Assembly: GCA_964419615.1 (NCBI GenBank) | Contig: CAYQPU010000033.1 | Location: forward strand, 1-19,958 | Reading direction: 5' to 3' | Length of the DNA stretch: 19,958 nucleotides | From: an uncultured Methanosarcinales archaeon | Lineage (GTDB): Archaea; Nanobdellota; Nanobdellia; Woesearchaeales; JAGVZT01 | Shown: piece by piece, positions 6,810 through 19,485 of the stretch | How positions within the stretch are numbered: the first letter of the stretch is position 1 | How the letters are laid out: every line of letters starts with the position of its first letter | Translations under genes and position numbers: made by a program | Notes under the pieces: generated by a model | Seen by the model: the letters and a program-made list of their open reading frames with translations, nothing else | Database searches by the model: none | Told to the model about the DNA's origin: nothing

Positions 6810-7469
6810 TTGATAAACAAGATTTACAAAATACTTTTTAATAAATATGGACCACAAGGGTGGTGGCCATTGCTCGAACTAGGTGAGGTATCATACAAAC
6901 CTGGCTCAAAACAATATGGTGGTTATCATCCAGGAGACTATTCATATCCAAAAACAGATGGCCAAAGATTTGAAATATGTGTTGGAGCAATTCTTACACA
7001 GAACACAAGTTGGAACAATGTATCCAAAGCTCTGCTTGAATTACATAAAACAAATATGTTGGATCCTAGTGCTATCTTGGAAACAGGTGATGAGACTCTT
7101 CACACTTTAATCAAATCAGCAGGCTACTTTAGACAAAAGAGAAAGAAACTCAAAAACTTCTCAGAATTCTTCATCAAACTAAAAAACAAAACACCCACTA
7201 GAGAGCAATTACTATCTGTTTGGGGTGTTGGTCCAGAAACAGCAGATTCAATCTTGCTCTATGCTTACAAACAACCCGAATTTGTAATAGATACTTACAC
7301 AAAAAGATTACTTCTAAGAAAAGGTTTGGTATCTGAAAAAGCAACCTATAATGAAATCAAAGCTCTATTTGAGAACAATCTGAAAAAAGATTACAAGATG
7401 TTTCAGGAATATCATGCACTGATTGTGGAGCATAATAAATCTGTAAAGCAAATGTCACATTTAAATTAA
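6810..7469 (+). CDS. Endonuclease III-related HhH-GPD DNA glycosylase (MJ1434-like), no Fe-S cluster
   Basis: GAILTQNTSWNNV, AGYFRQK, LLSVWGVGPETADSILLYA, FVIDTY; TTG start with GGAG at 6801-6804. Confidence 0.85.
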   Translation: MINKIYKILFNKYGPQGWWPLLELGEVSYKPGSKQYGGYHPGDYSYPKTDGQRFEICVGAILTQNTSWNNVSKALLELHKTNMLDPSAILETGDETLHTLIKSAGYFRQKRKKLKNFSEFFIKLKNKTPTREQLLSVWGVGPETADSILLYAYKQPEFVIDTYTKRLLLRKGLVSEKATYNEIKALFENNLKKDYKMFQEYHALIVEHNKSVKQMSHLN

Positions 7470-7488
7470 TATTATAAGAAACAAAAGA

Positions 7489-7515
7489 TTTATATAATCA
7501 TTATAATTATTATAT
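7489..7515 (+). promoter_or_regulatory. TATA box overlapped by a 24-bp palindrome (candidate TA operator)
   Basis: TTTATATA at 7489-7496; ATATAATCATTATAATTATTATAT at 7492-7515 pairs at 11 of 12 positions; GGTGA SD at 7533-7537. Confidence 0.55.
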
Positions 7516-7543
7516 TTGTTATAGTGCTTAAAGGTGATTTTAT

Positions 7544-7744
7544 ATGAATACAACAATTGCAATATCTACAACTATTAGGGACAAGATCAAAGAATTTGGT
7601 GCAAAGGGAGAAACTTACGACGAAATACTAGCAAGACTTTTAAATAGTGCTAAGGAAAGACAATTACAAGATTTATTAATGAATTCAGAAGAATGCGTTG
7701 AAATTGATGAAGCACTAAAAAAAGCTAGGAAAAGATGGCAATAG
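7544..7744 (+). CDS. Putative antitoxin (RHH/CopG-like N-terminal DNA-binding domain)
   Basis: 66 aa; TTIAISTTIRDKIKEFGAKGETYDEILARLL matches the small archaeal strand-helix-helix antitoxin pattern; overlaps the next gene by 10 nt. Confidence 0.7.
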   Translation: MNTTIAISTTIRDKIKEFGAKGETYDEILARLLNSAKERQLQDLLMNSEECVEIDEALKKARKRWQ

Positions 7745-8073
7745 TTGTCATAACAAAAACACTAGAGAAAGAGATTAATAATAAATTCAAGCAAGAATCA
7801 GTTACTATTTTTTCTATGATGCAAGAATTGAAAACCAATCCCAAAAAAGGTCATATTGTGGGAGTTGTTGGAAGAATTCTTATTAAAGAGCTTAAATACA
7901 AGAAATTTAGATATTACTTTATTACAGATGGATATAAGATTAAATTCTTAAAAACTGAAGAACTAAAGAATCTGATAATCAAATTTGTTAGAATGTCTGA
8001 TAAGAAAACTCAACAAAAAGTAATTGATGAGATTAAATCTGTGTTGAGAAACCTTGGAGAGGACAGTTTTTAA
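7735..8073 (+). CDS. Putative RelE/ParE-superfamily toxin
   Basis: 112 aa, very basic; VVITKTLEKE..., ELKTNPKKG, IKELKYKKFRYYF resemble the RelE/ParE fold; coupled to the antitoxin-like gene. Confidence 0.55.
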   Translation: MAIVVITKTLEKEINNKFKQESVTIFSMMQELKTNPKKGHIVGVVGRILIKELKYKKFRYYFITDGYKIKFLKTEELKNLIIKFVRMSDKKTQQKVIDEIKSVLRNLGEDSF

Positions 8074-8131
8074 TAGTTTTCAATGTAATTCTGTAGAAAA
8101 ACTTAAATACTACTAATCAGTTACAACTTTC

Positions 8132-8653
8132 ATGGGGCAAGGTGGACAAGGTTATACAGGTCAAATGGATGATGAAACAAGATTAAAGTTTTATAGACAG
8201 TTTAATACATGTAAAATTAAAAATAATGCGCAGGTGAAATTCACAGGTTTTGGCAATGCGAAGTTCTCAATCTTGATCAATCTATATGACCTTGTGGAAA
8301 ATGAAGAGGATCTTGATTTACGTGAACAAAATGAACTGATTGCTTATGTTTATACATCATTAGGTTTCATTACTTCAGAATATGTAAGAAACAATGTTTC
8401 AGACACTTGGGGTTATGAAGATGAATTTGTTGAATTCTTGAATGGTGTTGCTACACAGGTTTCAATGCTTGCTTGGAGAGTAGCTGAGTTTTTTAATCAT
8501 TGGTATACTGTTGGTAATCCTGGTTTTGATTCTCCTTTGTATACAAATATTGCAGCAACATTAAGTAAAATGGACAGACTTGACATAAATCACTTAGGGA
8601 TGGAAGTTGATGCATTAGAAAGAAAACTTGGAACAGAATTTCCTCCCACTTAA
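8132..8653 (+). CDS. Hypothetical protein
   Basis: 173-aa ORF; TATA-like CTTAAATA at 8102-8109. Confidence 0.6.
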   Translation: MGQGGQGYTGQMDDETRLKFYRQFNTCKIKNNAQVKFTGFGNAKFSILINLYDLVENEEDLDLREQNELIAYVYTSLGFITSEYVRNNVSDTWGYEDEFVEFLNGVATQVSMLAWRVAEFFNHWYTVGNPGFDSPLYTNIAATLSKMDRLDINHLGMEVDALERKLGTEFPPT

Positions 8654-9577
8654 TTAATAATTCAATCGCTCCTGTAAATTATTTATTGGCATGCTAACCA
8701 TACCTCCAATCAACTCTGACTCAGCAATACTATCAACAACTATTTCCATTGCTTCATAATCAGGCCTGTTTGGTGTCCAGTATGATTGAGTGGACAAAGC
8801 ACCAGTGTCTTGATACATAGCATACACTTTTTCATGGCACATTACAAGTTCATATCCTTGATTCAATAAAGGTTTGGTAATAATTTCCTCATCAAAATTG
8901 TCTTGTAGAACACTAAACTTTTCATTACCTCCCCACATTGTTTTAAACCCATCATGCCACATACTAAACATGAACCTATCCAAAACCAAGGCATCTTCCT
9001 TTTTCTCATATAAAAAAGCCTCTTCACCAAATCCATAATGTGCTGGTGAATGTGAGACAATTAGTTTTGATCCCTTACTTAAGCACTGTTGCATCACATT
9101 TAAGAAATGTCCAAACTCTCCGTGAGCCATAAAATAAGGTACAGCTGTATTGGCGCATCTTACCATATCAACTGCTTTTAGTAATTTTTCCATAGATTCA
9201 GATGGACAAAGTATATCTCCAATCATAACCTCTTGGCAACCATTTGTAATAAAGAGGGGATCAATCTCAATCCCAGCAAACCCATATCCATGCATGTAAG
9301 CTTGACCCATTAACTCATAATAAGTAGGAGCACCTGCACCCAAACCAACTTCTAGAGCATATTCTGGATTAAGTGCATCAATAACAGACTGAGTTGCAGA
9401 AGTTCTTCCAGCACATGTGTTCCCATAACCATCATTATCTTCTTGAGCTCTTTTCCTAAGTTCAAGTAATTTATCACAAGATATTTGAGCAGCTCTAAAA
9501 TCCAGTAGAATTTCCACCTCATCAAATTCATAATTGTTTGAATCTAATTTATCTAAAAATTCTGTTAAGTTTTCCAT
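8654..9577 (-). CDS. Class I SAM-dependent methyltransferase, CheR-like motifs
   Basis: ALEVGLGAG (motif I), FAGIEID, VMIGDIL, VDMVRCANTAVPYF, LSKGSKLIV. Confidence 0.65.
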   Translation of the reverse strand: MENLTEFLDKLDSNNYEFDEVEILLDFRAAQISCDKLLELRKRAQEDNDGYGNTCAGRTSATQSVIDALNPEYALEVGLGAGAPTYYELMGQAYMHGYGFAGIEIDPLFITNGCQEVMIGDILCPSESMEKLLKAVDMVRCANTAVPYFMAHGEFGHFLNVMQQCLSKGSKLIVSHSPAHYGFGEEAFLYEKKEDALVLDRFMFSMWHDGFKTMWGGNEKFSVLQDNFDEEIITKPLLNQGYELVMCHEKVYAMYQDTGALSTQSYWTPNRPDYEAMEIVVDSIAESELIGGMVSMPINNLQERLNY

Positions 9578-9652: not shown

Positions 9653-10435
9653 TCAAAACCTATGCCTGGTCCTTCTCATCTCTCTGTAATACAATCCATC
9701 AAATCTGTTCTTATAGAATGCAAATACTGAACCTGCTCCAGCTGCAGCTCCAACAGCAGCAGCTATCCAAGATATAGTGGTTATTTCACTCTGCCTCAGA
9801 TGACCTTTACCAGGTATTCCTAAAACTCTATGAATATCTATAGAATAATCTCCAGCAGCAAGCATCTTTTCTTCTAATGGCATGTTCTGCGCTAACCCAT
9901 AAAGAATATTCTGTATGACAGGTTGAGCTTCCACTAGTCTATCACGAACATTATAAACTTCAGCTAAATTCTTCGAATGATTGTTAATTGACCCAGCTTG
10001 TCGTCTAGGTTTCCATGGAGGAGGATTAAAATATCCATAAATACAGCTAGGATCAAAATAGAAATCAGAATCTCCTGCTTGGTTAATCTCTTCTAATATG
10101 TTTTCAAAATTGGACACAAAAAAACCTTTGCTCTGAGCCAGAGTCAAATAAGCCTTTGCTATCTTACTATGTAGATTGTTAAATCTATTAGTATCTGCCG
10201 TTGGTAAATGCATCTCACTAAAAGGTTTTTCAAAAACAGTTGTTTGTAATCCAGATCTTATAACTCTAGCAGATTGTGCAATCTGTTCTGGACTTTTCCA
10301 CTGAGAATGACTCCTGGAATCACATTCATATTCATCATGACAACTTTCAGTTCTATTACCATCTGCATCTGTTGAGTAAGTACATACCCTTTCCCAATGA
10401 CCGCTTTCACTATATGTGTGACTAAACGCCCCCAT
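9653..10435 (-). CDS. Hypothetical membrane protein; probably the 3' part of a gene interrupted by TAA at 10514-10516
   Basis: 260 aa with C-terminal TM (ISWIAAAVGAAAGAGSVFAFY); the frame stays open upstream to 10513. Confidence 0.65.
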   Translation of the reverse strand: MGAFSHTYSESGHWERVCTYSTDADGNRTESCHDEYECDSRSHSQWKSPEQIAQSARVIRSGLQTTVFEKPFSEMHLPTADTNRFNNLHSKIAKAYLTLAQSKGFFVSNFENILEEINQAGDSDFYFDPSCIYGYFNPPPWKPRRQAGSINNHSKNLAEVYNVRDRLVEAQPVIQNILYGLAQNMPLEEKMLAAGDYSIDIHRVLGIPGKGHLRQSEITTISWIAAAVGAAAGAGSVFAFYKNRFDGLYYREMRRTRHRF

Positions 10436-10513
10436 TATACCATTACTTCTTATAATATCAATAGCTGAATGAAAACTCTGGTCATGGTATAAAGGAATAA
10501 CTTCCTCTGAAAG

Positions 10514-11773
10514 TTATGAAGCCCAAATCAAATTGTCCCACATAAGATTCATCAGCTGACTATCAGCCAGAGCTCTTAACATTCTTTCTTGGGCGACAGA
10601 TTCATCGTCTGCACCATCATTAACATCATTTTCAACCGGATCATTTTCAAGTGGAGCATTAACATCTTCCTCATCAATCCATAGTCTTTTATAACCTTCA
10701 TCCCCCCAAAATGCTGCATTTGCACCATATTGTGCAAATTCCAAAGCAGCCGCAGGACCAACCTCCTGTTCCTTGAATATGATGTCAGCTAGTTCAGACT
10801 CTCTGTTCTTATCCCAGTAATTCAATAATGCAAATGTACCTTTGTTTAGGGCTAATCCAAACAATCCTGCAACAACGACTCCAGCAACAATAGCATAAGT
10901 TGATGGTTCAACGCTCTTTAGAGCACCTAACCTATCTTCTATATTTTCCCGTAAGGTTGTTTGATGGATATGCCATGTACCAAGTTCAGGATTGGTACTA
11001 GCTTCACCAATCTTTTTCTTAATTCTTTTTTGGTATTTTCTTGTGAATGCATGTTTATTACTGTGCTCTCTTGACTGAATCTCAACATTTTTTACTATTA
11101 ATTCTAATTCTGCTCTGTCAAATAACTCCCCATATTCCGTTGCAAGATCTCCATAAAGATCAGTTATATCATGAAAGTTTGTTTCTCTTGTAGCAAAACC
11201 ATGTGCAGTGTGTCTAATATCCTGCAAAAGATCAGAATAATCTTGTATGTCAAGATCGGATCTACTTCCTATTCTTTCCTCCAGTCTTTCTTCAAGCTCT
11301 GTAACAGACTTATAAATTTTCATCTGGTTATAATTACGCTTTTGTTCCAAATCATGCTTCCATTTGTTAGAAACTTTTTTTACATTGTTACCATGGAAAA
11401 GTGCGATTATCCTAGCTAGACCCCCAGGATCACTTGGAACTCCCCTCAACTCCCCTCCTCTGTGTTCAGGCCGGATTATTTTAGCTTCTTCAGATAGTTC
11501 AGATACATCTATTTTTGGAAGAATTTTGTTAGCTATTCCAGTTAGAATGTAAGGAAGATTAATCCAAGTCTCAGTAAGAGCATACATTGGCCCATGCTTT
11601 TTAATTCTATCAATACCACTTCTATGTAATCCCTTACCATGTTGGATGGTGTCAAAAGTACAAGCTATAAGTGGTGCTATTCCTAAGGTATCTAACTCTT
11701 CAAAACCTTCAACATCTAGCTGGTCAAATTCATGGGAATTAAACTGTTGGTTGAACTGGGTGTTGTATCTCAT
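10514..11773 (-). CDS. Hypothetical membrane protein; probably the 5' part of the same interrupted gene
   Basis: 419 aa with TM YAIVAGVVVAGLFGLAL and an acidic linker; same frame as 9653..10435. Confidence 0.7.
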   Translation of the reverse strand: MRYNTQFNQQFNSHEFDQLDVEGFEELDTLGIAPLIACTFDTIQHGKGLHRSGIDRIKKHGPMYALTETWINLPYILTGIANKILPKIDVSELSEEAKIIRPEHRGGELRGVPSDPGGLARIIALFHGNNVKKVSNKWKHDLEQKRNYNQMKIYKSVTELEERLEERIGSRSDLDIQDYSDLLQDIRHTAHGFATRETNFHDITDLYGDLATEYGELFDRAELELIVKNVEIQSREHSNKHAFTRKYQKRIKKKIGEASTNPELGTWHIHQTTLRENIEDRLGALKSVEPSTYAIVAGVVVAGLFGLALNKGTFALLNYWDKNRESELADIIFKEQEVGPAAALEFAQYGANAAFWGDEGYKRLWIDEEDVNAPLENDPVENDVNDGADDESVAQERMLRALADSQLMNLMWDNLIWAS

Positions 11774-12301: not shown

Positions 12302-12357
12302 TATATAAACTTTTTTACTATGAAGTTAATAACAAATACCTCAGAAACATTTAAATA
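12302..12357. promoter_or_regulatory. Back-to-back divergent TATA boxes
   Basis: TTTATATA on the minus strand (12309-12302) and TTTAAATA on the plus strand (12350-12357), each 22-26 nt from an ATG. Confidence 0.55.
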
Positions 12358-12383
12358 CAAAACCGAACGAAATTCTCTTTACA

Positions 12384-13061
12384 ATGAAAAAATTAATTGC
12401 TATTCTATTATTAATATTGTTAGTTGGATGCACACAAGAACCTGTAGCTGAACAGGAAGTTTCAGAAGAGCCAATGCAAGAAGATTTACCTTTGGAAGCA
12501 GAGATAATTGAACCTCCTGAAGAACCATTGGCACAAGAGATTACCGCATTGTTTGCTAGGAACTCCAAAATAACAAGTTATGAATATATCTACAAAGGAG
12601 ACAGCCCACAAACTATTACATACTACATCAAAGGTGAAAAAATATGGGCAAGTTATCCTCAAGTCCAGGAATATGGCGGATTTGAATTCTATGATGTATA
12701 CATGGACTCAAAAATTGCCACTCTAATTTGTGCTGATGTGGATAAGTGCAAAGGTAAGAAAGCAAAGGAAGCTCCTTTATCTAAATTTGTTCCAATAACT
12801 CCATTAGAAATTATCAGCCAAATTAGCAATGGTGAAATCACAGAAACAACTCAAATTGAAAATAGAGACACATCAGTGGTATCATATACAAATGCTGATG
12901 GAAATCAAGAAAGAATATGGATATGGGATTATTGGGGTATTCCAGTCAAAAGAGAAATCACCAAAACAGATAGTAAAGAAGTAATTGCCTATGACAATCT
13001 TGTTGTAAACTCTGTAAAAGATGAGCAGGTAACATTGCCTGATGATTTGGAGATGCAATGA
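12384..13061 (+). CDS. Lipoprotein with acidic linker and putative LolA-like beta-fold
   Basis: MKKLIAILLLILLVGC lipobox; Glu/Pro linker; RIWIWDYWGIPVKREIT pattern. Confidence 0.7.
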   Translation: MKKLIAILLLILLVGCTQEPVAEQEVSEEPMQEDLPLEAEIIEPPEEPLAQEITALFARNSKITSYEYIYKGDSPQTITYYIKGEKIWASYPQVQEYGGFEFYDVYMDSKIATLICADVDKCKGKKAKEAPLSKFVPITPLEIISQISNGEITETTQIENRDTSVVSYTNADGNQERIWIWDYWGIPVKREITKTDSKEVIAYDNLVVNSVKDEQVTLPDDLEMQ

Positions 13062-13576
13062 ACCTATTATTCATTTTTGGTATTATTTTAATGGCACTAA
13101 TTCTATTTGTAGTTCTGAAGGTAGCTAAGAGATTGATTAAAGTTGTATTCAGTTTGATCTTCATATTGCTATTAATAAGCCTGGTTTTTGGATTTTTTGT
13201 TTTCAGAGACTTTCAAGATTTCCAGGAAAATTTCTTTGACTCTAAAAATACTTTCTTAGTGCAGAAAAATGGAACAATAACCATGGGATTTAGTGCGATT
13301 GGTTTTGTTGAAGACAAAGCTCTGCTAAATGATCAAGAAATACAGGAATTACAACAATATTATGAACAGAAAGATTTCTTATCAATGGTTGATGATGAAT
13401 ATAAAATTTTTATAATTGACATGCAAATTGCTCCAGAAGACATGCAGGATTTCAGCATGGATGTTATCTTTGAGCAAGCCAAGTTAGTTGAAGTTATTCC
13501 TGAAAGCCCAATGTTTATGGCCATAAAATATCTGCCGTGGCTTGCTAATTTCAAATCTGGAGTAAATCAAGGCTAA
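13058..13576 (+). CDS. Hypothetical membrane protein (2 N-terminal TM)
   Basis: 172 aa; ATGA overlap with the lipoprotein gene. Confidence 0.75.
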   Translation: MNLLFIFGIILMALILFVVLKVAKRLIKVVFSLIFILLLISLVFGFFVFRDFQDFQENFFDSKNTFLVQKNGTITMGFSAIGFVEDKALLNDQEIQELQQYYEQKDFLSMVDDEYKIFIIDMQIAPEDMQDFSMDVIFEQAKLVEVIPESPMFMAIKYLPWLANFKSGVNQG

Positions 13577-13601
13577 TAATAACTTACCTGTTTACAAAAA
13601 A

Positions 13602-14405
13602 CTAAAGCACGATTCTGTAAACCTCAAATGCTTCTGCATATTTAGGTTCTTCACTAAATAACTTAAAAGAAGGTGGGCTAAAATACTTTGCTGCTTTGTG
13701 AACATCTCCTATAAAACCTCCAACCTGAGAAGGAAAACAGTTAATAAGAAGTGATGACTTGCTATCCCAATCAAATTGGTTCATGGGATAAAAGGCATTT
13801 GGAGCGAAATTAACAGTTTTTCTGGGACAACACATTATTAAAATGCTTGAAACATCCTTTGCTGCAGTAATTGATGCTTTTGATACAGCTACATGGTCCC
13901 TATGTTCATCATTCTCAGAATGAGTGTACAACTCATCTGGTTCTATACATAAAATAACTCCACCTAATCTTGCAACTAGGTCTCTTTGTTGTTCCAATGC
14001 ATTATTTGGTAAATTCAAATAAAAAACTCCCGAAATTCCAGTCTGCCCAGCTGTTTGTTTAATTAAATATTCATTGTATTCTTCAATACTTTCTGTCCAG
14101 TCCTCATTACTATCTCTATTTCTTACATCTCTTCCAATTGATAAAGCAGCAGCTTGACTCTCAATTATTCTTTCTCCTGGAATAATCCCCTGAGCTGCTT
14201 CCCCATTTGTACAGATAGCATAAAATATTGCGTACTCCTGTTCAATCATTTCTTTAATTTTTGCTGAACAACCAATCTCAATGTCATCAGGATGTGCACC
14301 AATAAAAAGAGCACGTTTATCATAGACTTCTAATTCCCTCCCAAGATCAGATATTGTGACCGGAAAATAATTTAATTGGAAATTCCCTAGCGTAAGTTCT
14401 TCCAT
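13602..14405 (-). CDS. PIG-L/LmbE-family Zn-dependent de-N-acetylase; start revised from 14456 to 14405
   Basis: GAHPDDIEIG, TNGE, RIIES, EHRDH, FPSQ and AEAF motifs; GGAGGT SD inside the end of the upstream gene (GGAGGTCAATAG-T-ATG). Confidence 0.9.
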   Translation of the reverse strand: MEELTLGNFQLNYFPVTISDLGRELEVYDKRALFIGAHPDDIEIGCSAKIKEMIEQEYAIFYAICTNGEAAQGIIPGERIIESQAAALSIGRDVRNRDSNEDWTESIEEYNEYLIKQTAGQTGISGVFYLNLPNNALEQQRDLVARLGGVILCIEPDELYTHSENDEHRDHVAVSKASITAAKDVSSILIMCCPRKTVNFAPNAFYPMNQFDWDSKSSLLINCFPSQVGGFIGDVHKAAKYFSPPSFKLFSEEPKYAEAFEVYRIVL

Positions 14406-14406
14406 A

Positions 14407-15339
14407 CTATTGACCTCCAGGTAATTCAACCAAATCTTCAAAGAGAGAATTTCCATTGTTTCTTAACTCCAAAAATCTGCCATGTAAATATGGTCCCAAT
14501 TGTACTTTGGGAATATCAAAAAAGGGAATTGTAACAATATTTTCTGAATAATCAAAAAAAGTTTTTTGTCTGTACATCAGTTGGTTGGCAACATATTTTT
14601 CAGTATCTTCTCTTTGTTCACTATCAAGTTCAGGCATATGTGAGGGTAGTCGCAAAGATATCATATCTGGTTGAATCATGTAACTGTTACATATATCAAA
14701 AGCCTGTTGAATTTCCCTTGTTTTTACACTTGATGTTTTTACAGGAGAATTTTTGTCTCCTCTGTACCCAATTTCATTTAGTAAAACAATATTGCATTTG
14801 TCAGTGAGTTTATGCTTCAGATAGGCAACCGTTGGTAATGCATAATTTTGAACCTCTTTTGAGTCTAATGTTCCTCCTATTTCTATTAATAATTGTTTAG
14901 GAGATCCAAGACAGCTACATCTTTCAAGTATGTTGTAGGCAAAATATTTCATTTTATCAGGAACATTACTAGTACTATGTCTTCCTGCAACAAATGCATT
15001 AAAAAACAAATCAACATCGCCACCTAAAATAGAATTAATAGCACTAAACTCTAAACCTGGATTAAACCTCTTGTATGTTTCAAAATCATCAATGGCAATT
15101 GGTGATTCTCTCCTTGAAAAAACAAGTGCATCATTATCAATCTTAGAATCATAATTGCTCAAAAAAACAGAATCAAATTTCAAAATATGTCTATCATCAA
15201 GAACACTTGCAATATGTGCAGTTAAATGCCCTTTCCCAATGTCAGATAGATTATGTCCTAGAACAATTGTTACTGTTGTTTGCTCCCCAAACCAATTTTG
15301 TTCTATTAATTTATTCAGATCATCATTAACCCATGGCAT
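14407..15339 (-). CDS. Divergent stand-alone CTP synthase amidoligase (N-terminal) domain, no glutamine amidotransferase domain
   Basis: VLGHNLSDIGKG, LKFD, DDFETYKRF, LLIEIGGTL, KTREIQ and IQPDMISLR occur in PyrG order; ends at 310 aa. Confidence 0.8.
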   Translation of the reverse strand: MPWVNDDLNKLIEQNWFGEQTTVTIVLGHNLSDIGKGHLTAHIASVLDDRHILKFDSVFLSNYDSKIDNDALVFSRRESPIAIDDFETYKRFNPGLEFSAINSILGGDVDLFFNAFVAGRHSTSNVPDKMKYFAYNILERCSCLGSPKQLLIEIGGTLDSKEVQNYALPTVAYLKHKLTDKCNIVLLNEIGYRGDKNSPVKTSSVKTREIQQAFDICNSYMIQPDMISLRLPSHMPELDSEQREDTEKYVANQLMYRQKTFFDYSENIVTIPFFDIPKVQLGPYLHGRFLELRNNGNSLFEDLVELPGGQ

Positions 15340-15363
15340 ATTGAAAACAGGGAATAATCATAC

Positions 15364-15371
15364 ATATATAA
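15364..15371 (-). promoter_or_regulatory. TATA box for the CTPS-like/PIG-L operon
   Basis: TTATATAT on the minus strand, 24 nt before ATG 15339. Confidence 0.5.
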
Positions 15372-15425
15372 TTGTTACCATAATCAAGTGGTATACTAAA
15401 CCTGGTGTAGAGGTTAATCTGACTA

Positions 15426-15761
15426 TTAAATTTCTTGATTAAATTGGGGAATACAACAAAAATTCTGCAAATAATAATGGATATTAAATCTTAGTGGCTT
15501 TAATCTCTCCCAATGTAAGAAATCATCTGGATGGTAGTCAAGAGGTAAACCAATAACTCCTGTTTGACAAGCAATACCTATTCTTACTTTAACGAAACCA
15601 AACATTGGCCAAACATTATAATCATCAGTTTCATAAAAAAGATCTTTGTGAGAAATATCATTAACATAACGCTCATTTAGGAATTTTAAAGATCCCTCAA
15701 TGTGAGCATCCAAAACTCTTCCAAGATCATCATACTTATATTCTCTATCTATTAGATTCAT
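15426..15761 (-). CDS. Hypothetical protein
   Basis: 111-aa ORF filling the gap upstream of the CTPS-like gene; no family recognised. Confidence 0.5.
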   Translation of the reverse strand: MNLIDREYKYDDLGRVLDAHIEGSLKFLNERYVNDISHKDLFYETDDYNVWPMFGFVKVRIGIACQTGVIGLPLDYHPDDFLHWERLKPLRFNIHYYLQNFCCIPQFNQEI

Positions 15762-15845
15762 ATTAAAAAGAAATCTATTTTCATATAATAATCTTATTAA
15801 ATACTAATAGTAAGATATATAAACCAAAATCTACTAGCATAATTT

Positions 15846-16724
15846 ATGTACGAACAGATCACAGCTAACAAAAGAAAGACATTCCTATTATTCTTTTTAT
15901 TCATAGTTTTAATAATGGGTTTAGGTCTAGCATTTGACATTGCTTTTGGTCTAAATTACATGGGAATAGTGATTGCCTTTATTATTACAATTGTCTGGAG
16001 CTTAGTCAGCTATTTTTCAGGTGATAAAATTGTATTAAAAATGTCTGGTGCAAAAGAAGCTAATAAACGGGAACATGCTCACTTAATCAATTCTGTTGAG
16101 GGATTAGCAATTGCAGCTGGAATACCAAAGCCAAAAGTATATGTGATTGATGATCCTGCAATTAATGCATTTGCAACCGGAAGAAGCCCTGAACACTCAT
16201 CAGTTGCAGTAACATCTGGGGCAATCAAAAAACTAAATAGGCAAGAACTAGAAGGAGTCATAGCTCATGAACTAAGTCATGTTAAAAACTATGACATCCG
16301 AACCATGCTTCTAGCAGCAGTATTAGTTGGTGTGATTGCTCTGTTAAGTGATTTCATGATTAGATCATTTTGGTATGGAGGTAGAAGAAAAAAAGGATCT
16401 GGTTCATCAGGTGCAATTGGGATAGCAATTGGTATCGCAGCTGCAATTCTAGCACCATTAATAGCCAACCTAATTAAACTATCAATCTCACGAAAAAGAG
16501 AATATCTGGCAGATGCATCCGGCGCTATGCTCACAAGATACCCAAAAGGACTTGCAGATGCACTTAGAAAAATTGAACATGATCACACTCAATTAAAAAC
16601 AGCAACAAATGCAACTGCTCATCTATATATCTCAAATCCATTTAAGAAAAAAGGATTTTTTGTGAATATGTTTTCAACGCATCCACCTATTAAAGAAAGA
16701 ATCAAAGCTTTGGACAAAATGTGA
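15846..16724 (+). CDS. htpX: Membrane zinc metalloprotease HtpX (M48)
   Basis: INAFATGR, GVIAHELSHVKNYD, REYLADASGA, STHP; TATATAAA at 15816-15823. Confidence 0.95.
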   Translation: MYEQITANKRKTFLLFFLFIVLIMGLGLAFDIAFGLNYMGIVIAFIITIVWSLVSYFSGDKIVLKMSGAKEANKREHAHLINSVEGLAIAAGIPKPKVYVIDDPAINAFATGRSPEHSSVAVTSGAIKKLNRQELEGVIAHELSHVKNYDIRTMLLAAVLVGVIALLSDFMIRSFWYGGRRKKGSGSSGAIGIAIGIAAAILAPLIANLIKLSISRKREYLADASGAMLTRYPKGLADALRKIEHDHTQLKTATNATAHLYISNPFKKKGFFVNMFSTHPPIKERIKALDKM

Positions 16725-16914: not shown

Positions 16915-19485
16915 TTATGGTTGAACCCTCAATCCACCAGTCAGTTCTCTCCAATATCCAAATATTGGATCATTTTCTTCATAAAAAGAATGTATAAGAT
17001 GTGAATTTTTACTTGGCACATTTTCACAACTTTCTGGTTTTATATCATTAGAATACTTGCACATATCTGTATTAAACCCGCCATACTCTATATACAACAA
17101 TGCAAATTTTGAACCATCATGCCTTGTTGTCTCTGTTCTTGCAAGTACTGTTTTACCATTTATATTAGACACATAAATTCTATCAAATCTATGTGCTTTA
17201 TCCATGAAAGTTACAATGTTACTTGGAAGAGGATTAAAAATATGATTCAAAACATCATCAGATGGAGTCCTTAAAAGATTATTAAATTTATTCTTCCAAT
17301 TTGCAAACACAGGCAATAGCACATCACCCTCATTTTCTACACCATACACAAAGCTTCTCTGTTTGTGATTATACCATAAATTTCCATCCTGACACTTCTT
17401 AAACTTATTCTCATCATCCATAACATCATCACAATCTTTAGAATAACCTAAAAGATGATATAGTTTATCCATTGTCATATTTGGATTTAAAGACGAGCCA
17501 ATTGCCTGAATATTACCTTCCCCCCCAGTAAGCACACAAAACTTACCCAGACATGCACTATAATCACACTCACCAGTATTTAATAAATAATCACTCGCAA
17601 TCTCTCCGTCTGGGAAAATCTTTGTGATATAATTAAGAGATAATCTGGGATCTTCGCAAAAAACAACATAATCATCTGCATAATCATTATTTGCTTTCTG
17701 TAATAATTCCAAGGCAACATTCCTTGTTCTTGAGGTCCAATTTCCCTGCTCACACATATTATCAATAATATATTGAGTATCGCTAATACAAACCGGGCTT
17801 TTATTAGGATCAGCTAAAAAATAATTTTCAGGTATATCATTATAATTTTTATTTCCATTATTCAAAACAAGGCACTGTTCAGCTTTCTCACAACAACCAG
17901 TTTCTCTATTACCCCAACTATACCTCTCAAATTCTGAACTGTCATCACCACAGCATTCTCCTCCACTCCAGGAATAGCCCATTGCCTCACATAATTGTTG
18001 GTCATTGTCTGGATCTACTAAAAACTCAGCGTGTTTATTCCATTCTGGATACACTCCACTTTGATAATAACCAAAAGAATGTCTTGCCATCCCATACACA
18101 TTATAAGTTTCCCAGTTCCATCCCGGTTTAAATTCAACAATATATGATGAAACAATGCTGTTATTAATTTTGTTACGATTAGAAGGTCCAATCAATAAAC
18201 TGGATGTACCATCATAATTATCTAATACTGTGCTTCCACCTGCAGCTTGGCTCCAGCATTGTGTAGGATCTGAGACTGCATTTGCCATAACATAACCCTG
18301 TCCTCTTAACCAGCCAGCACCAACATATTCCACAAGTCTCTGCTCAAAATTAGCAGAACAACCAGTATCTCCCCCACCAGCTTCAGTATTGGAATATACT
18401 CTCTTTGGAGCTAAAGCAAGCCATATCTCATCTAAGTTATCTGCATCTATGCTGTCAGTGACCCTGACTGAGAATTTGTATTTTGCTGTGCTGAGTTTAG
18501 TGAAAGTGACAGCATCAACATCTAATTCAACAACACAATTAAGCGGGCAGACATCGCCAGCTTCTTTCTCATCACACACAGGTAATGCTCCGCAGTCAGC
18601 TTCACATTTGCCGTCTGCCTCCCTGTGGTATGAGTCGCAGCAGATTCCTCCTCCTTTGCAGAAGAATCCAGAAGGACAAGAGTCTGAAACCCATTGCTCT
18701 GATCCCTGGCCGCAATCAGGTGAACGGGTCTGTTTCTGTTCTCTCTTTGTTCCTGAACATCTAATTTCTCCTGTATTTGTCCAGGCACCAGGCACACAAG
18801 GGGGAGGGGGTGGTGGAGGAGGATCACCTTTATTATGAACCAACACACCACCTGCAAAAAAAGTGTTAGTGTTTGAAACCTTTTTTAGATTGTAAGTCTG
18901 GACTTCTTCTACAATATGAACAATACCAATAATTTTCACCCAATTATCTTGTTTAAAAACATAATCCCCTCTTTTAATTGGTTTAACATCCATACCTGCA
19001 TCTAAAAGAGTAATTTCAGGGATAATGGATGCCCAACCTTGATACTCAGAATTGTTAATATAAATTGGATGTTCATTTGTGACATTCAATTCAGTTCCAT
19101 CTTCAAATTTAATTGTATAATAATCTTTTCTAATTGGAGATTCTAGTTCTAATACAGTTACATTAATATATTCTTTTTTAAACTCATCATAACCAAGAAC
19201 AGTATCTCCAACTTTTACATCTTCGATTGGTACTTGAGAACCATTGGATAGTATTATGGGGGTACCTGGAAGGAAGCATGATGAACAACTATCCGTACAA
19301 GAAGGTCTACCTCCACAATCTATTGCAGGATCTGTCCAACAGCCAGGTTCACCCCCACAACAATAATAACGTCCACAATCATCTTGACAACCATCTGCAC
19401 TAACATCTCCTGCCAAAGAAACAAACATAACGCAAACAACAATTGAAAACAACAAGAATTGCTTATTAGATTTACTAGACTTCAT
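16915..19485 (-). CDS. Secreted Cys-rich protein with a Hint (intein-like/Hedgehog-type) autoprocessing domain
   Basis: Signal peptide aa 1-30, 8-Cys peptide aa 31-69, Hint aa 70-218, Pro8 linker, Cys-rich modules, CCGDD motif, large C-terminal domain; no evident C-terminal TM. Confidence 0.9.
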   Translation of the reverse strand: MKSSKSNKQFLLFSIVVCVMFVSLAGDVSADGCQDDCGRYYCCGGEPGCWTDPAIDCGGRPSCTDSCSSCFLPGTPIILSNGSQVPIEDVKVGDTVLGYDEFKKEYINVTVLELESPIRKDYYTIKFEDGTELNVTNEHPIYINNSEYQGWASIIPEITLLDAGMDVKPIKRGDYVFKQDNWVKIIGIVHIVEEVQTYNLKKVSNTNTFFAGGVLVHNKGDPPPPPPPPCVPGAWTNTGEIRCSGTKREQKQTRSPDCGQGSEQWVSDSCPSGFFCKGGGICCDSYHREADGKCEADCGALPVCDEKEAGDVCPLNCVVELDVDAVTFTKLSTAKYKFSVRVTDSIDADNLDEIWLALAPKRVYSNTEAGGGDTGCSANFEQRLVEYVGAGWLRGQGYVMANAVSDPTQCWSQAAGGSTVLDNYDGTSSLLIGPSNRNKINNSIVSSYIVEFKPGWNWETYNVYGMARHSFGYYQSGVYPEWNKHAEFLVDPDNDQQLCEAMGYSWSGGECCGDDSSEFERYSWGNRETGCCEKAEQCLVLNNGNKNYNDIPENYFLADPNKSPVCISDTQYIIDNMCEQGNWTSRTRNVALELLQKANNDYADDYVVFCEDPRLSLNYITKIFPDGEIASDYLLNTGECDYSACLGKFCVLTGGEGNIQAIGSSLNPNMTMDKLYHLLGYSKDCDDVMDDENKFKKCQDGNLWYNHKQRSFVYGVENEGDVLLPVFANWKNKFNNLLRTPSDDVLNHIFNPLPSNIVTFMDKAHRFDRIYVSNINGKTVLARTETTRHDGSKFALLYIEYGGFNTDMCKYSNDIKPESCENVPSKNSHLIHSFYEENDPIFGYWRELTGGLRVQP
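18832..19278 (-). other. Hint domain (149 aa), no homing endonuclease
   Basis: Block A CFLPGTPI, block B LNVTNEHPIY (TxxH), block F/G TYNL...FFAGGVLVHN followed by Lys. Confidence 0.9.

What the first reader, a model, noticed from the sequence alone, without database searches (positions are those of the whole stretch)
13602..15339. GATase-less CTP-synthase paralog translationally coupled to a PIG-L deacetylase: candidate new amination or nucleotide-modification pathway
Seen: a 310-aa protein keeps PyrG synthetase motifs in order. SDIGKG matches SSLGKG, DDFETYKRF matches DLDLGHYERF, IEIGGT matches VEIGGT, KTREIQ matches KTKPTQ, and IQPD..LR matches IQPD..CR. The PYLNVDPGTMSPYQHGEV segment (ammonia tunnel/gate) is replaced, the GDIE CTP-contact motif becomes DSKE, and the glutaminase domain is absent. 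Its stop lies 1 nt before the ATG of an intact PIG-L/LmbE deacetylase whose SD is embedded in the upstream gene. Established: PyrG phosphorylates UTP O4 with ATP and displaces it with ammonia from its GATase; PIG-L enzymes free amines from N-acetyl groups. Inference: the deacetylase may supply an amine (for example an amino-sugar) that the ligase attaches to an activated pyrimidine, or the pair may salvage or remodel N4-acylcytidine or modify nucleotides for defence.
Basis: partly seen in the sequence, partly recalled or inferred. Interest (0 to 1): 0.8.

Follow-up and report, generated by a model that had tools for sequence, protein, structure and literature searches.

The report
Glutaminase-less CTP-synthase-like ligase with deacetylase
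A small archaeon carries an inserted two-gene unit, a stripped-down relative of the enzyme that makes CTP joined to a zinc deacetylase; the pairing recurs in unrelated microbes and belongs to a very rare, undescribed enzyme family that seems to remodel nucleotides.

Summary
Window 14407-15339(-) encodes a 310-aa protein with the CTP-synthase amidoligase fold. Its ATP and catalytic residues and the UTP-phosphate motif are intact, but the glutaminase domain and ammonia-gate residues are missing. Its stop lies 1 nt before the ATG of an intact PIG-L deacetylase (13602-14405).

The genome (archaeal, 1.48 Mb) has a normal full-length pyrG elsewhere.

The ligase belongs to a very rare family: 43 clusters among 1.8 billion representatives. 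The family forms a clade separate from PyrG, with four subclades. Where gene context or a fusion was seen, each has its own partner:
- PIG-L
- Ham1 with a kinase or kinase-like gene
- HD with a kinase, on mobile elements
- TudS desulfurase

All four members of the PIG-L subclade have a PIG-L next door. The nearest one (59% identity) is in a Saccharibacteria bacterium.

In the same-genus genome, the two flanking genes are 48 bp apart. The pair, together with an orphan ORF, is therefore a 2.27-kb indel. Neither gene was found in 60 relatives.

The substrate and chemistry are not known. The best guess is deacetylation coupled to ATP-driven C-N ligation on a uridine-nucleotide-type substrate. An earlier scan note had already recorded the Ham1 branch of this family.

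The parts
14407..15339 (-). Glutaminase-less CTP-synthase-type amidoligase (P0001, 310 aa)
   Evidence: PF06418 24.8 bits. AF2 pLDDT 91.8. Foldseek PDB: all ranks listed (to 50) are CTP synthases. Residues invariant or near-invariant with PyrG: S32, G35, K36, K54, D56, D85, E153, G155, G156, E162, K206, R230.
13602..14405 (-). PIG-L/LmbE zinc N-deacetylase (P0004, 267 aa), downstream partner
   Evidence: PF02585 66.4 bits. AHPDDIE (37-43) and H168-x-D170-H171 are invariant in a 20-sequence alignment. An N-terminal extension and a ~32-aa insert are shared only with the partners of P0003 and P0006.
14403..14418 (-). Coupling junction: GGAGG (14418-14414), ligase stop TAG (14409-14407), 1 nt, PIG-L ATG (14405-14403)
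   Evidence: Read directly from the sequence. The same 1-nt gap occurs in L013 and a 6-nt gap in L006.
15426..15761 (-). Orphan 111-aa ORF (P0176) inside the same inserted segment; function unknown
   Evidence: No Pfam or PADLOC match. No homologue in any related locus.
13577..15845 (.). 2.27-kb segment present here but absent from the same-genus genome, where the flanking genes are 48 bp apart
   Evidence: G001:C55 matches window 12340-13566 and 15845-16722 at positions 498-1720 and 1787-2664. L052 ORFs end at 1739 and start at 1788. No terminal repeats. GC is 0.323, like the flanks.
15364..15372 (-). A/T-rich TATA-like box (ATTATATAT) 25-33 nt upstream of the ligase ATG; possible archaeal promoter (inference only)
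   Evidence: Read from the sequence; not tested.

Best explanation
This is a horizontally acquired two-enzyme module, not a housekeeping CTP synthase. Gene 1 is an ATP-dependent amidoligase of the CTP-synthase type. It keeps the machinery that phosphorylates a carbonyl oxygen and the pocket that holds a nucleotide's phosphates. It has lost the glutaminase domain and the ammonia-gate residues, so its nitrogen nucleophile must come from outside. Gene 2, translated from the same message, is an intact zinc N-deacetylase of the PIG-L family. The most likely mechanism is inferred, not shown. PIG-L removes an acetyl group from an N-acetylated amine, most likely an amino sugar or nucleotide sugar, as its nearest relatives lie in glycan gene clusters. 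The ligase then uses ATP to join an amine to an activated carbonyl of a uridine-type nucleotide, giving an N4-substituted cytidine-type product. The order of the two steps could also be reversed. The module belongs to a wider family in which the same ligase core is paired with different nucleotide-processing partners.
For: The ligase looks catalytically competent. The P-loop SDIGKG, K54, D56, D85, E153, GG155-156, E162, K206/T207/Q211 and R230 align with PyrG residues and are conserved family-wide. The fold is confirmed. There is no GATase domain, and the stretch holding the E. coli tunnel constriction (Pro54, His57, Val60, per PMC9138612) is replaced. A canonical 532-aa PyrG with GATase is at G000:C2. 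The family is rare: 43 hits in 1.8e9 representatives. It forms its own clade, and the PIG-L subclade has 100/98 support. All 4 subclade members have a PIG-L next door. Three of those PIG-Ls are orthologous and downstream, with 1-6 nt gaps. The fourth is a different PIG-L (21% identity) transcribed divergently, which suggests independent recruitment. The 59%-identical copy lies in a Saccharibacteria MAG that also has its own PyrG. Neither the ligase nor this PIG-L was found in 60 relatives, and the pair sits on a precise indel. Sister subclades carry Ham1 or TudS at the C-terminus, where GATase sits in PyrG. They also neighbour kinases, HD, NUDIX and a thymidylate-synthase-like gene. The nearest ordinary PIG-L relatives lie in glycan clusters.
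Against: No substrate, product or physical contact between the two proteins was shown. The co-fold tool was unreachable and then closed. CTP synthase can use free ammonia (PMC9138612), so simple NH3-dependent CTP synthesis is not excluded. The PIG-L could act on an unrelated substrate. The subclade has only four members, mostly on short metagenome contigs. The AF2 alignment included canonical PyrG sequences, which favours that fold. P0001 itself falls just under the Pfam cut-off.
Confidence: 0.5

Rival explanations
1. The ligase is an ammonia-dependent CTP or dCTP synthase that tops up the cytidine pool of a host-dependent cell. The PIG-L is functionally unrelated or only loosely linked.
For: All ATP and catalytic residues, the KTxxxQ phosphate-binding motif and the E149 equivalent (E162) are kept. 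CTPS uses exogenous NH3 (PMC9138612).
Against: The genome and the Saccharibacteria carrier both already have full-length PyrG. The pairing with PIG-L is seen in all 4 subclade members, and it involves two different PIG-L lineages. The two genes are tightly coupled. The family is extremely rare and patchy.
Confidence: 0.17
2. The pair salvages or cleans modified pyrimidines taken up from hosts. PIG-L deacetylates N4-acetylcytidine or its nucleotides, and the ligase re-aminates uridine nucleotides. This would parallel the TudS (thiouracil) and Ham1 (non-canonical NTP) partners of the sister subclades.
For: The partner set Ham1, TudS, NUDIX, HD and HAD consists of nucleotide house-cleaning enzyme types. 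Carriers identified so far are a DPANN-like archaeon and a Saccharibacteria bacterium, both with small genomes.
Against: The nearest PIG-L relatives sit in glycan clusters, not nucleotide contexts. The two steps would run in parallel rather than in sequence, which does not explain the tight coupling. Known ac4C amidohydrolases belong to another fold (my own knowledge, not tested here).
Confidence: 0.13
3. The pair is a conflict or defence module that makes or destroys a nucleotide analogue.
For: The pair lies on an indel and is sporadic. Members of a sister subclade lie on integrative or conjugative elements beside HD and kinase genes, and one lies next to a TIR protein.
Against: The ligase, the PIG-L and 10 window neighbours have no PADLOC match. 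No viral homologue was found. PIG-L-subclade loci show no mobile-element genes.
Confidence: 0.1
4. The ligase does not act on a pyrimidine ring. Like its fold relatives dethiobiotin synthetase and CobQ, it activates a carboxylate or carbamate and joins it to the sugar amine freed by PIG-L. That is the logic of MshB-MshC and BshB-BshC in thiol cofactor synthesis.
For: PIG-L's best NCBIfam hit is BshB1, at 46 bits and far below its cut-off. The nearest PIG-L relatives lie in glycan clusters. The Saccharibacteria locus lies by glycogen genes. A deacetylase followed by an ATP-dependent ligase is established in mycothiol and bacillithiol synthesis (textbook knowledge).
Against: The CTPS-specific KTxxxQ motif and E162 are conserved. 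Every other subclade has nucleotide-enzyme partners.
Confidence: 0.1

Closest known systems
CTP synthase PyrG/CTPS (EC 6.3.4.2), N-terminal amidoligase domain (PF06418)
   Same: Same fold (Foldseek E 1e-15, TM 0.65 on the query). Same P-loop, catalytic Lys, Asp and Glu, GG motif, KTxxxQ motif and PD...R motif.
   Different: No GATase domain. The tunnel-gate segment is replaced. GDIE becomes DSKE. There is an extra N-terminal helix. Identity is only 17-18%. It forms a separate clade. It scores 14-16 bits on the PyrG equivalog models, whose cut-offs are 308 and 463. The genome has a true PyrG elsewhere.
PIG-L/LmbE N-deacetylases (MshB, BshB, GlcNAc-PI deacetylase; PF02585)
   Same: Domain match above the cut-off. 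AHPDD and HxDH metal and catalytic motifs are intact.
   Different: It is not a BshB or MshB orthologue: 46 bits against a cut-off of 182.5. It carries an N-terminal extension and a ~32-aa insert found only in the ligase-linked copies.
Amidoligase-Ham1 fusion with adjacent kinase (earlier scan note e1-733012)
   Same: It has the same ligase family, again without GATase. It is rare and patchy in small-genome microbes.
   Different: It is a different subclade with a different partner: Ham1 plus a kinase rather than PIG-L. No Ham1 or kinase lies in this window.
MshB-MshC and BshB-BshC steps of mycothiol and bacillithiol synthesis
   Same: The logic is the same: a PIG-L deacetylase frees a sugar amine, which an ATP-dependent ligase then acylates (textbook knowledge).
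   Different: The ligase there is of another fold (Cys-tRNA-synthetase-like MshC). No glycosyltransferase or Cys-related genes are found here.

Membership tests
CTP synthase (PyrG) orthologue | N-terminal amidoligase domain with CTP_synth_N fold | tested here: met
   Foldseek: all ranks listed (to 50) are CTP synthases. Pfam gives 24.8 bits against a cut-off of 26.1 for P0001, but 33-59 bits for sisters.
CTP synthase (PyrG) orthologue | ATP and catalytic residues (E. coli K18, K40, D72, E140 by motif) | tested here: met
   K36, K54, D85 and E153 are aligned and conserved. The E. coli numbering comes from memory and by motif.
CTP synthase (PyrG) orthologue | C-terminal class I glutamine amidotransferase domain | tested here: not met
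   The protein ends at residue 310, and PF00117 gives no match.
CTP synthase (PyrG) orthologue | Ammonia-tunnel constriction Pro54/His57/Val60 | tested here: not met
   The segment is replaced by FLSNYDSKIDNDALV, with no Pro or His at the aligned positions. The role of these residues is taken from PMC9138612.
CTP synthase (PyrG) orthologue | Scores above the equivalog model cut-offs and groups with PyrG in a tree | tested here: not met
   TIGR00337 gives 13.9 bits against 462.75, and NF003792 gives 16.4 against 308. It forms a separate clade with 100/100 support.
PIG-L/LmbE deacetylase | PF02585 above the gathering score | tested here: met
   66.4 bits against 28.2.
PIG-L/LmbE deacetylase | Zinc and catalytic motifs AHPDD and HxDH | tested here: met
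   H38, D40, D41, H168, D170 and H171 are invariant in 20 sequences.
PIG-L/LmbE deacetylase | Deacetylase activity on an N-acetyl amino sugar | not testable with these tools
   This needs an enzyme assay.
Bacillithiol deacetylase BshB1 | Equivalog model score | tested here: not met
   46.2 bits against a cut-off of 182.5.
Known anti-phage defence systems (PADLOC 2.0) | Match of the pair or its neighbours to a defence model | tested here: not met
   No matches for P0001, P0004 or 10 neighbours.

The most novel reading that the evidence does not exclude
The whole family would be made of 'partner-swapped' pyrimidine C4 ligases. The CTP-synthase core still makes 4-phospho-UTP or a similar intermediate, but the glutaminase has been replaced, at the same downstream position, by modules that deliver or process a different group. 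The PIG-L would supply an amine freed by deacetylation, giving N4-substituted cytidine nucleotides. In the TudS fusions, an Fe-S-bound sulfide would give 4-thio-UTP. Ham1, NUDIX or HAD would then trim the product. This would be a new route to modified nucleotides, shared by transfer between CPR bacteria and DPANN archaea.
Probability: 0.2. Interest if true: 0.85.

Novelty: new variant of a known kind. Interest (0 to 1): 0.62.

Why it matters
CTP synthase is among the best-studied amidotransferases, and its amidoligase domain is normally found fused to a glutaminase. The full-text searches run here found no description of this family. It keeps the catalytic core, drops the glutaminase, and pairs each subclade with a different nucleotide-processing enzyme. 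If the partners decide what is attached at the activated carbonyl, the family would be a natural toolkit for making modified pyrimidine nucleotides. It would also add to the poorly understood nucleotide economy of host-dependent CPR bacteria and DPANN archaea. The 59% identity between an archaeal and a Saccharibacteria copy, on a clean indel, also fits gene transfer between the two domains.

Tried and rejected
- **Co-fold:** No co-fold was obtained.
- **First structure model:** the first AF2 run used a 2-sequence alignment and was unusable (pLDDT 45).
- **Locus searches:** The search for related loci with the 16-sequence alignment failed for lack of a conserved stretch. The 4-sequence version found one genome locus and no viral locus.
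- **Viral structures:** BFVD holds only full-length viral CTP synthases.
- **ESM Atlas:** it gave only generic P-loop leads at scores of 0.80 or below.
- **Solved structures:** phmmer against PDB found nothing for the ligase.
- **Literature:** searches for 'CTP synthase-like', CTP synthase plus PIG-L/LmbE/Ham1, and WbqC gave nothing relevant.
- **HAD hydrolase as a third component:** the HAD genes next to the pair in L006 and L013 are orthologous (45% identity), and the window's genome has an unlinked copy. The same HAD also occurs in relatives G033, G006 and G027, where no ligase was found. It was therefore rejected as a specific partner. G006 is flagged as unpublished.
- **Defence island:** rejected for this window.
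- **Composition:** the inserted segment shows no GC anomaly.

Full report
**1. What is in the sequence**

On the minus strand, 14407-15339 encodes a 310-aa protein (P0001). A second ORF follows directly.

The junction reads GGAGG (14418-14414), then four bases, then the ligase stop TAG (14409-14407), one T, and ATG at 14405. The real second gene is therefore 13602-14405 (P0004, 267 aa). It is not the 284-aa ORF that overlaps the ligase.

**2. Identity of the two proteins**

P0001 matches only CTP_synth_N. The score is 24.8 bits, just below the 26.1 cut-off, and covers residues 146-237. It scores 14-16 bits on the PyrG equivalog models, whose cut-offs are 308 and 463.

An alignment with the genome's own PyrG and with family members shows homology over the whole amidoligase domain. 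The matching features are:
- P-loop SDIGKG
- K54 and D56
- DDFxTY (D85)
- EIGGT (E153, G155, G156)
- E162
- KTxxxQ (K206, T207, Q211)
- PDxxxxR (R230)

Eight positions are invariant and seven more are nearly so across 36 sequences that include true PyrGs.

The stretch that in E. coli CTPS carries the tunnel constriction Pro54/His57/Val60 is replaced. The role of those residues is taken from PMC9138612. The protein ends where the GATase linker would begin.

With a 36-sequence alignment, AF2 gave pLDDT 91.8. In the Foldseek search of the PDB, all ranks listed (to rank 50) are CTP synthases, best E 1e-15. One caveat applies: the alignment included PyrGs, which favours that fold.

P0004 is a clear PIG-L, at 66.4 bits against a cut-off of 28.2. 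Its AHPDD and HxDH motifs are invariant. It is not a BshB orthologue.

**3. The genome**

The 16S gene is archaeal (1410 bits). The genome is 1.48 Mb and 99% complete, and it sits in an order with more than 100 small-genome families. This pattern looks DPANN-like.

A canonical PyrG of 532 aa with its own GATase lies on contig C2. The paralog is therefore not the cell's CTP synthase.

**4. Rarity and family structure**

- A word-based search of 5.8e9 proteins found one relative, P0003, at 59% identity.
- A profile search that read all 1.84e9 representatives found 43 proteins at E < 1e-3. A few of these are true PyrG fragments or repeat proteins.
- A second profile search of the 5.8e9 set added six more.
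- A maximum-likelihood tree separates the family from PyrG with 100/100 support. The tree is midpoint-rooted and has only four PyrG outgroups.

The tree resolves four subclades:

| Subclade | Support | Members | Partner or context where seen |
|---|---|---|---|
| a | 100/95 | 4 | One member (P0045) is fused at its C-terminus to a TudS 2-thiouracil desulfurase |
| b | 100/98 | P0001, P0003, P0006, P0007 | PIG-L |
| c | 94/92 | 11 | Mostly C-terminal Ham1 fusions |
| d | 100/99 | 13 | HD, kinase, NUDIX, mobile elements |

Details for subclade c:
- One fusion gene overlaps an upstream guanylate-kinase gene.
- In archaeon G238 the operon is unfused: ligase, then a 267-aa unknown protein, then Ham1.

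Details for subclade d:
- Some members lie in kinase / HD / degenerate-HD / ligase operons on integrative or conjugative elements.
- One lies in a TIR / thymidylate-kinase / thymidylate-synthase-like / ligase row.
- NUDIX genes flank the copy in L020 (subclade d). They also flank an unplaced copy in Saccharimonadia genome G476.

**5. The PIG-L link**

All four members of subclade b have a PIG-L gene next door:
- **Window:** 1-nt gap.
- **L013 (P0006):** 1-nt gap.
- **L006, L007 and L023 (P0003):** 6-nt gap.
- **L014 (P0007):** transcribed divergently, about 80 bp away.

The first three PIG-Ls are orthologous at 38-47% identity. They share an N-terminal extension and a ~32-aa insert that ordinary ~205-aa relatives lack. 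The L014 copy is a different PIG-L at 21% identity, which suggests a second, independent recruitment.

No locus examined from the other subclades has a PIG-L.

The nearest ordinary PIG-L relatives, at 30-38% identity, sit in glycan-biosynthesis clusters with glycosyltransferases, WbqC and flippases. This points to an amino-sugar type of substrate.

**6. Mobility**

- **Relatives:** neither the ligase nor this PIG-L was found in 60 relatives, including the same genus.
- **Own phylum:** among 401 genomes, only this genome and G238 carry a family member. Every other hit is ordinary PyrG.
- **Class of the Saccharibacteria carrier:** 2 of 221 genomes carry one.
- **Nearest copy:** it lies in a Candidatus Saccharibacteria MAG, which also has its own PyrG.
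- **Indel:** in same-genus genome G001, the orthologues of window 12340-13566 and of the M48 peptidase gene (15845-16722) are separated by 48 bp. Here they are separated by 2.27 kb that holds the orphan ORF P0176, the ligase and the PIG-L.
- **Signs of insertion:** there are no terminal repeats and no GC anomaly.

Insertion by horizontal transfer is the more economical reading, but loss in G001 cannot be excluded.

*Unpublished genomes.* G352, G277 and G388 count among the non-carriers. G006 is one of the three relatives with the HAD gene. All four are flagged as unpublished. Only those two tallies depend on them.

**7. Mechanism**

Shown:
- The ligase looks catalytically intact, has the CTPS fold, and lacks its nitrogen-supplying domain.
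- The deacetylase is intact and translationally coupled to it.
- The pairing is conserved and subclade-specific.
- The family is consistently tied to nucleotide enzymes.

Inferred:
- The ligase phosphorylates a carbonyl of a uridine-type nucleotide, because the KTxxxQ motif and E162 are kept.
- An external amine then replaces the phosphate.
- The PIG-L either frees that amine or processes the substrate or product.

Ham1 and TudS are fused at the C-terminus, and the PIG-L gene lies downstream in three of four loci. This is the position that GATase occupies in PyrG. That fits a partner-swap model, but it does not prove one.

The rival explanations are listed separately, each with its own odds:
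- plain NH3-dependent CTP synthesis
- ac4C or modified-pyrimidine salvage
- a conflict system
- a carboxylate-amine ligase in the MshB-MshC style

**8. Comparison with what is known, and novelty**

The ligase is not a PyrG orthologue. The tests for GATase, tunnel gate, equivalog score and tree position all failed. It is a divergent member of the CTP-synthase amidoligase superfamily.

No paper describing the family or the PIG-L pairing was found. PADLOC has nothing for either protein. PHROGs has no match for the ligase and places the PIG-L only in a family of unknown function.

This scan had already noted the Ham1 branch on other DNA (e1-733012). The present work adds the PIG-L branch, the four-subclade picture and the indel.

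Noticed in passing
L047 (G238:C2) 6910-9167, minus strand: A second DPANN-class archaeon has an unfused operon. The ligase (284 aa) overlaps (ATGGTTGA) a 267-aa protein with no Pfam match, followed by a standalone Ham1. By eye that protein has nucleoside-diphosphate-kinase-like motifs. The canonical PyrG lies 4 kb away.
   Followed up: partly
L050 713-4846: A row of a TIR-domain protein (526 aa), thymidylate kinase, a thymidylate-synthase-like protein (322 aa) and family ligase P0048. It looks like a pyrimidine-modification or conflict cassette.
   Followed up: no
L020-L022, L048, L049: The operon kinase (AAA_17/18), HD (~460 aa), a degenerate HD-like protein (~390 aa) and the ligase recurs on elements that carry integrase, TraG or resolvase. 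NUDIX or dCMP deaminase genes lie next to it.
   Followed up: partly
P0014 (476 aa): This Ham1-fused family member has W wherever the family has conserved G (SDIWKW, EIGWT). It was probably called with TGA=W in an organism that reads TGA as Gly (code 25).
   Followed up: no
P0045 (437 aa): The ligase core is fused to a C-terminal 2-thiouracil desulfurase (TudS, PF04463). This raises the idea of a 4-thio-UTP-related reaction.
   Followed up: no
G000:C2:48573-49199: This is an orthologue (37% identity) of the HAD hydrolase that sits beside the ligase-PIG-L pair in two bacterial loci. It is unlinked here. It is also present in relatives where no ligase was found, so it is not a specific partner.
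   Followed up: yes
window 7544-8073 (+): A small overlapping gene pair: a DUF7557/VapB-like antitoxin (66 aa) and a 112-aa protein. It may be a toxin-antitoxin pair.
   Followed up: no
L024 3288-3413 (G000:C1, 16S-23S spacer): A tRNA match spans 126 nt between the archaeal 16S and 23S genes. It is probably an intron-containing spacer tRNA.
   Followed up: no
window 16915-19485 (-) and 9653-11773 (-): There is a Hint-domain protein of 856 aa. There are also two same-frame ORFs separated by an in-frame stop. Both features were already noted by other first-stage readers.
   Followed up: no
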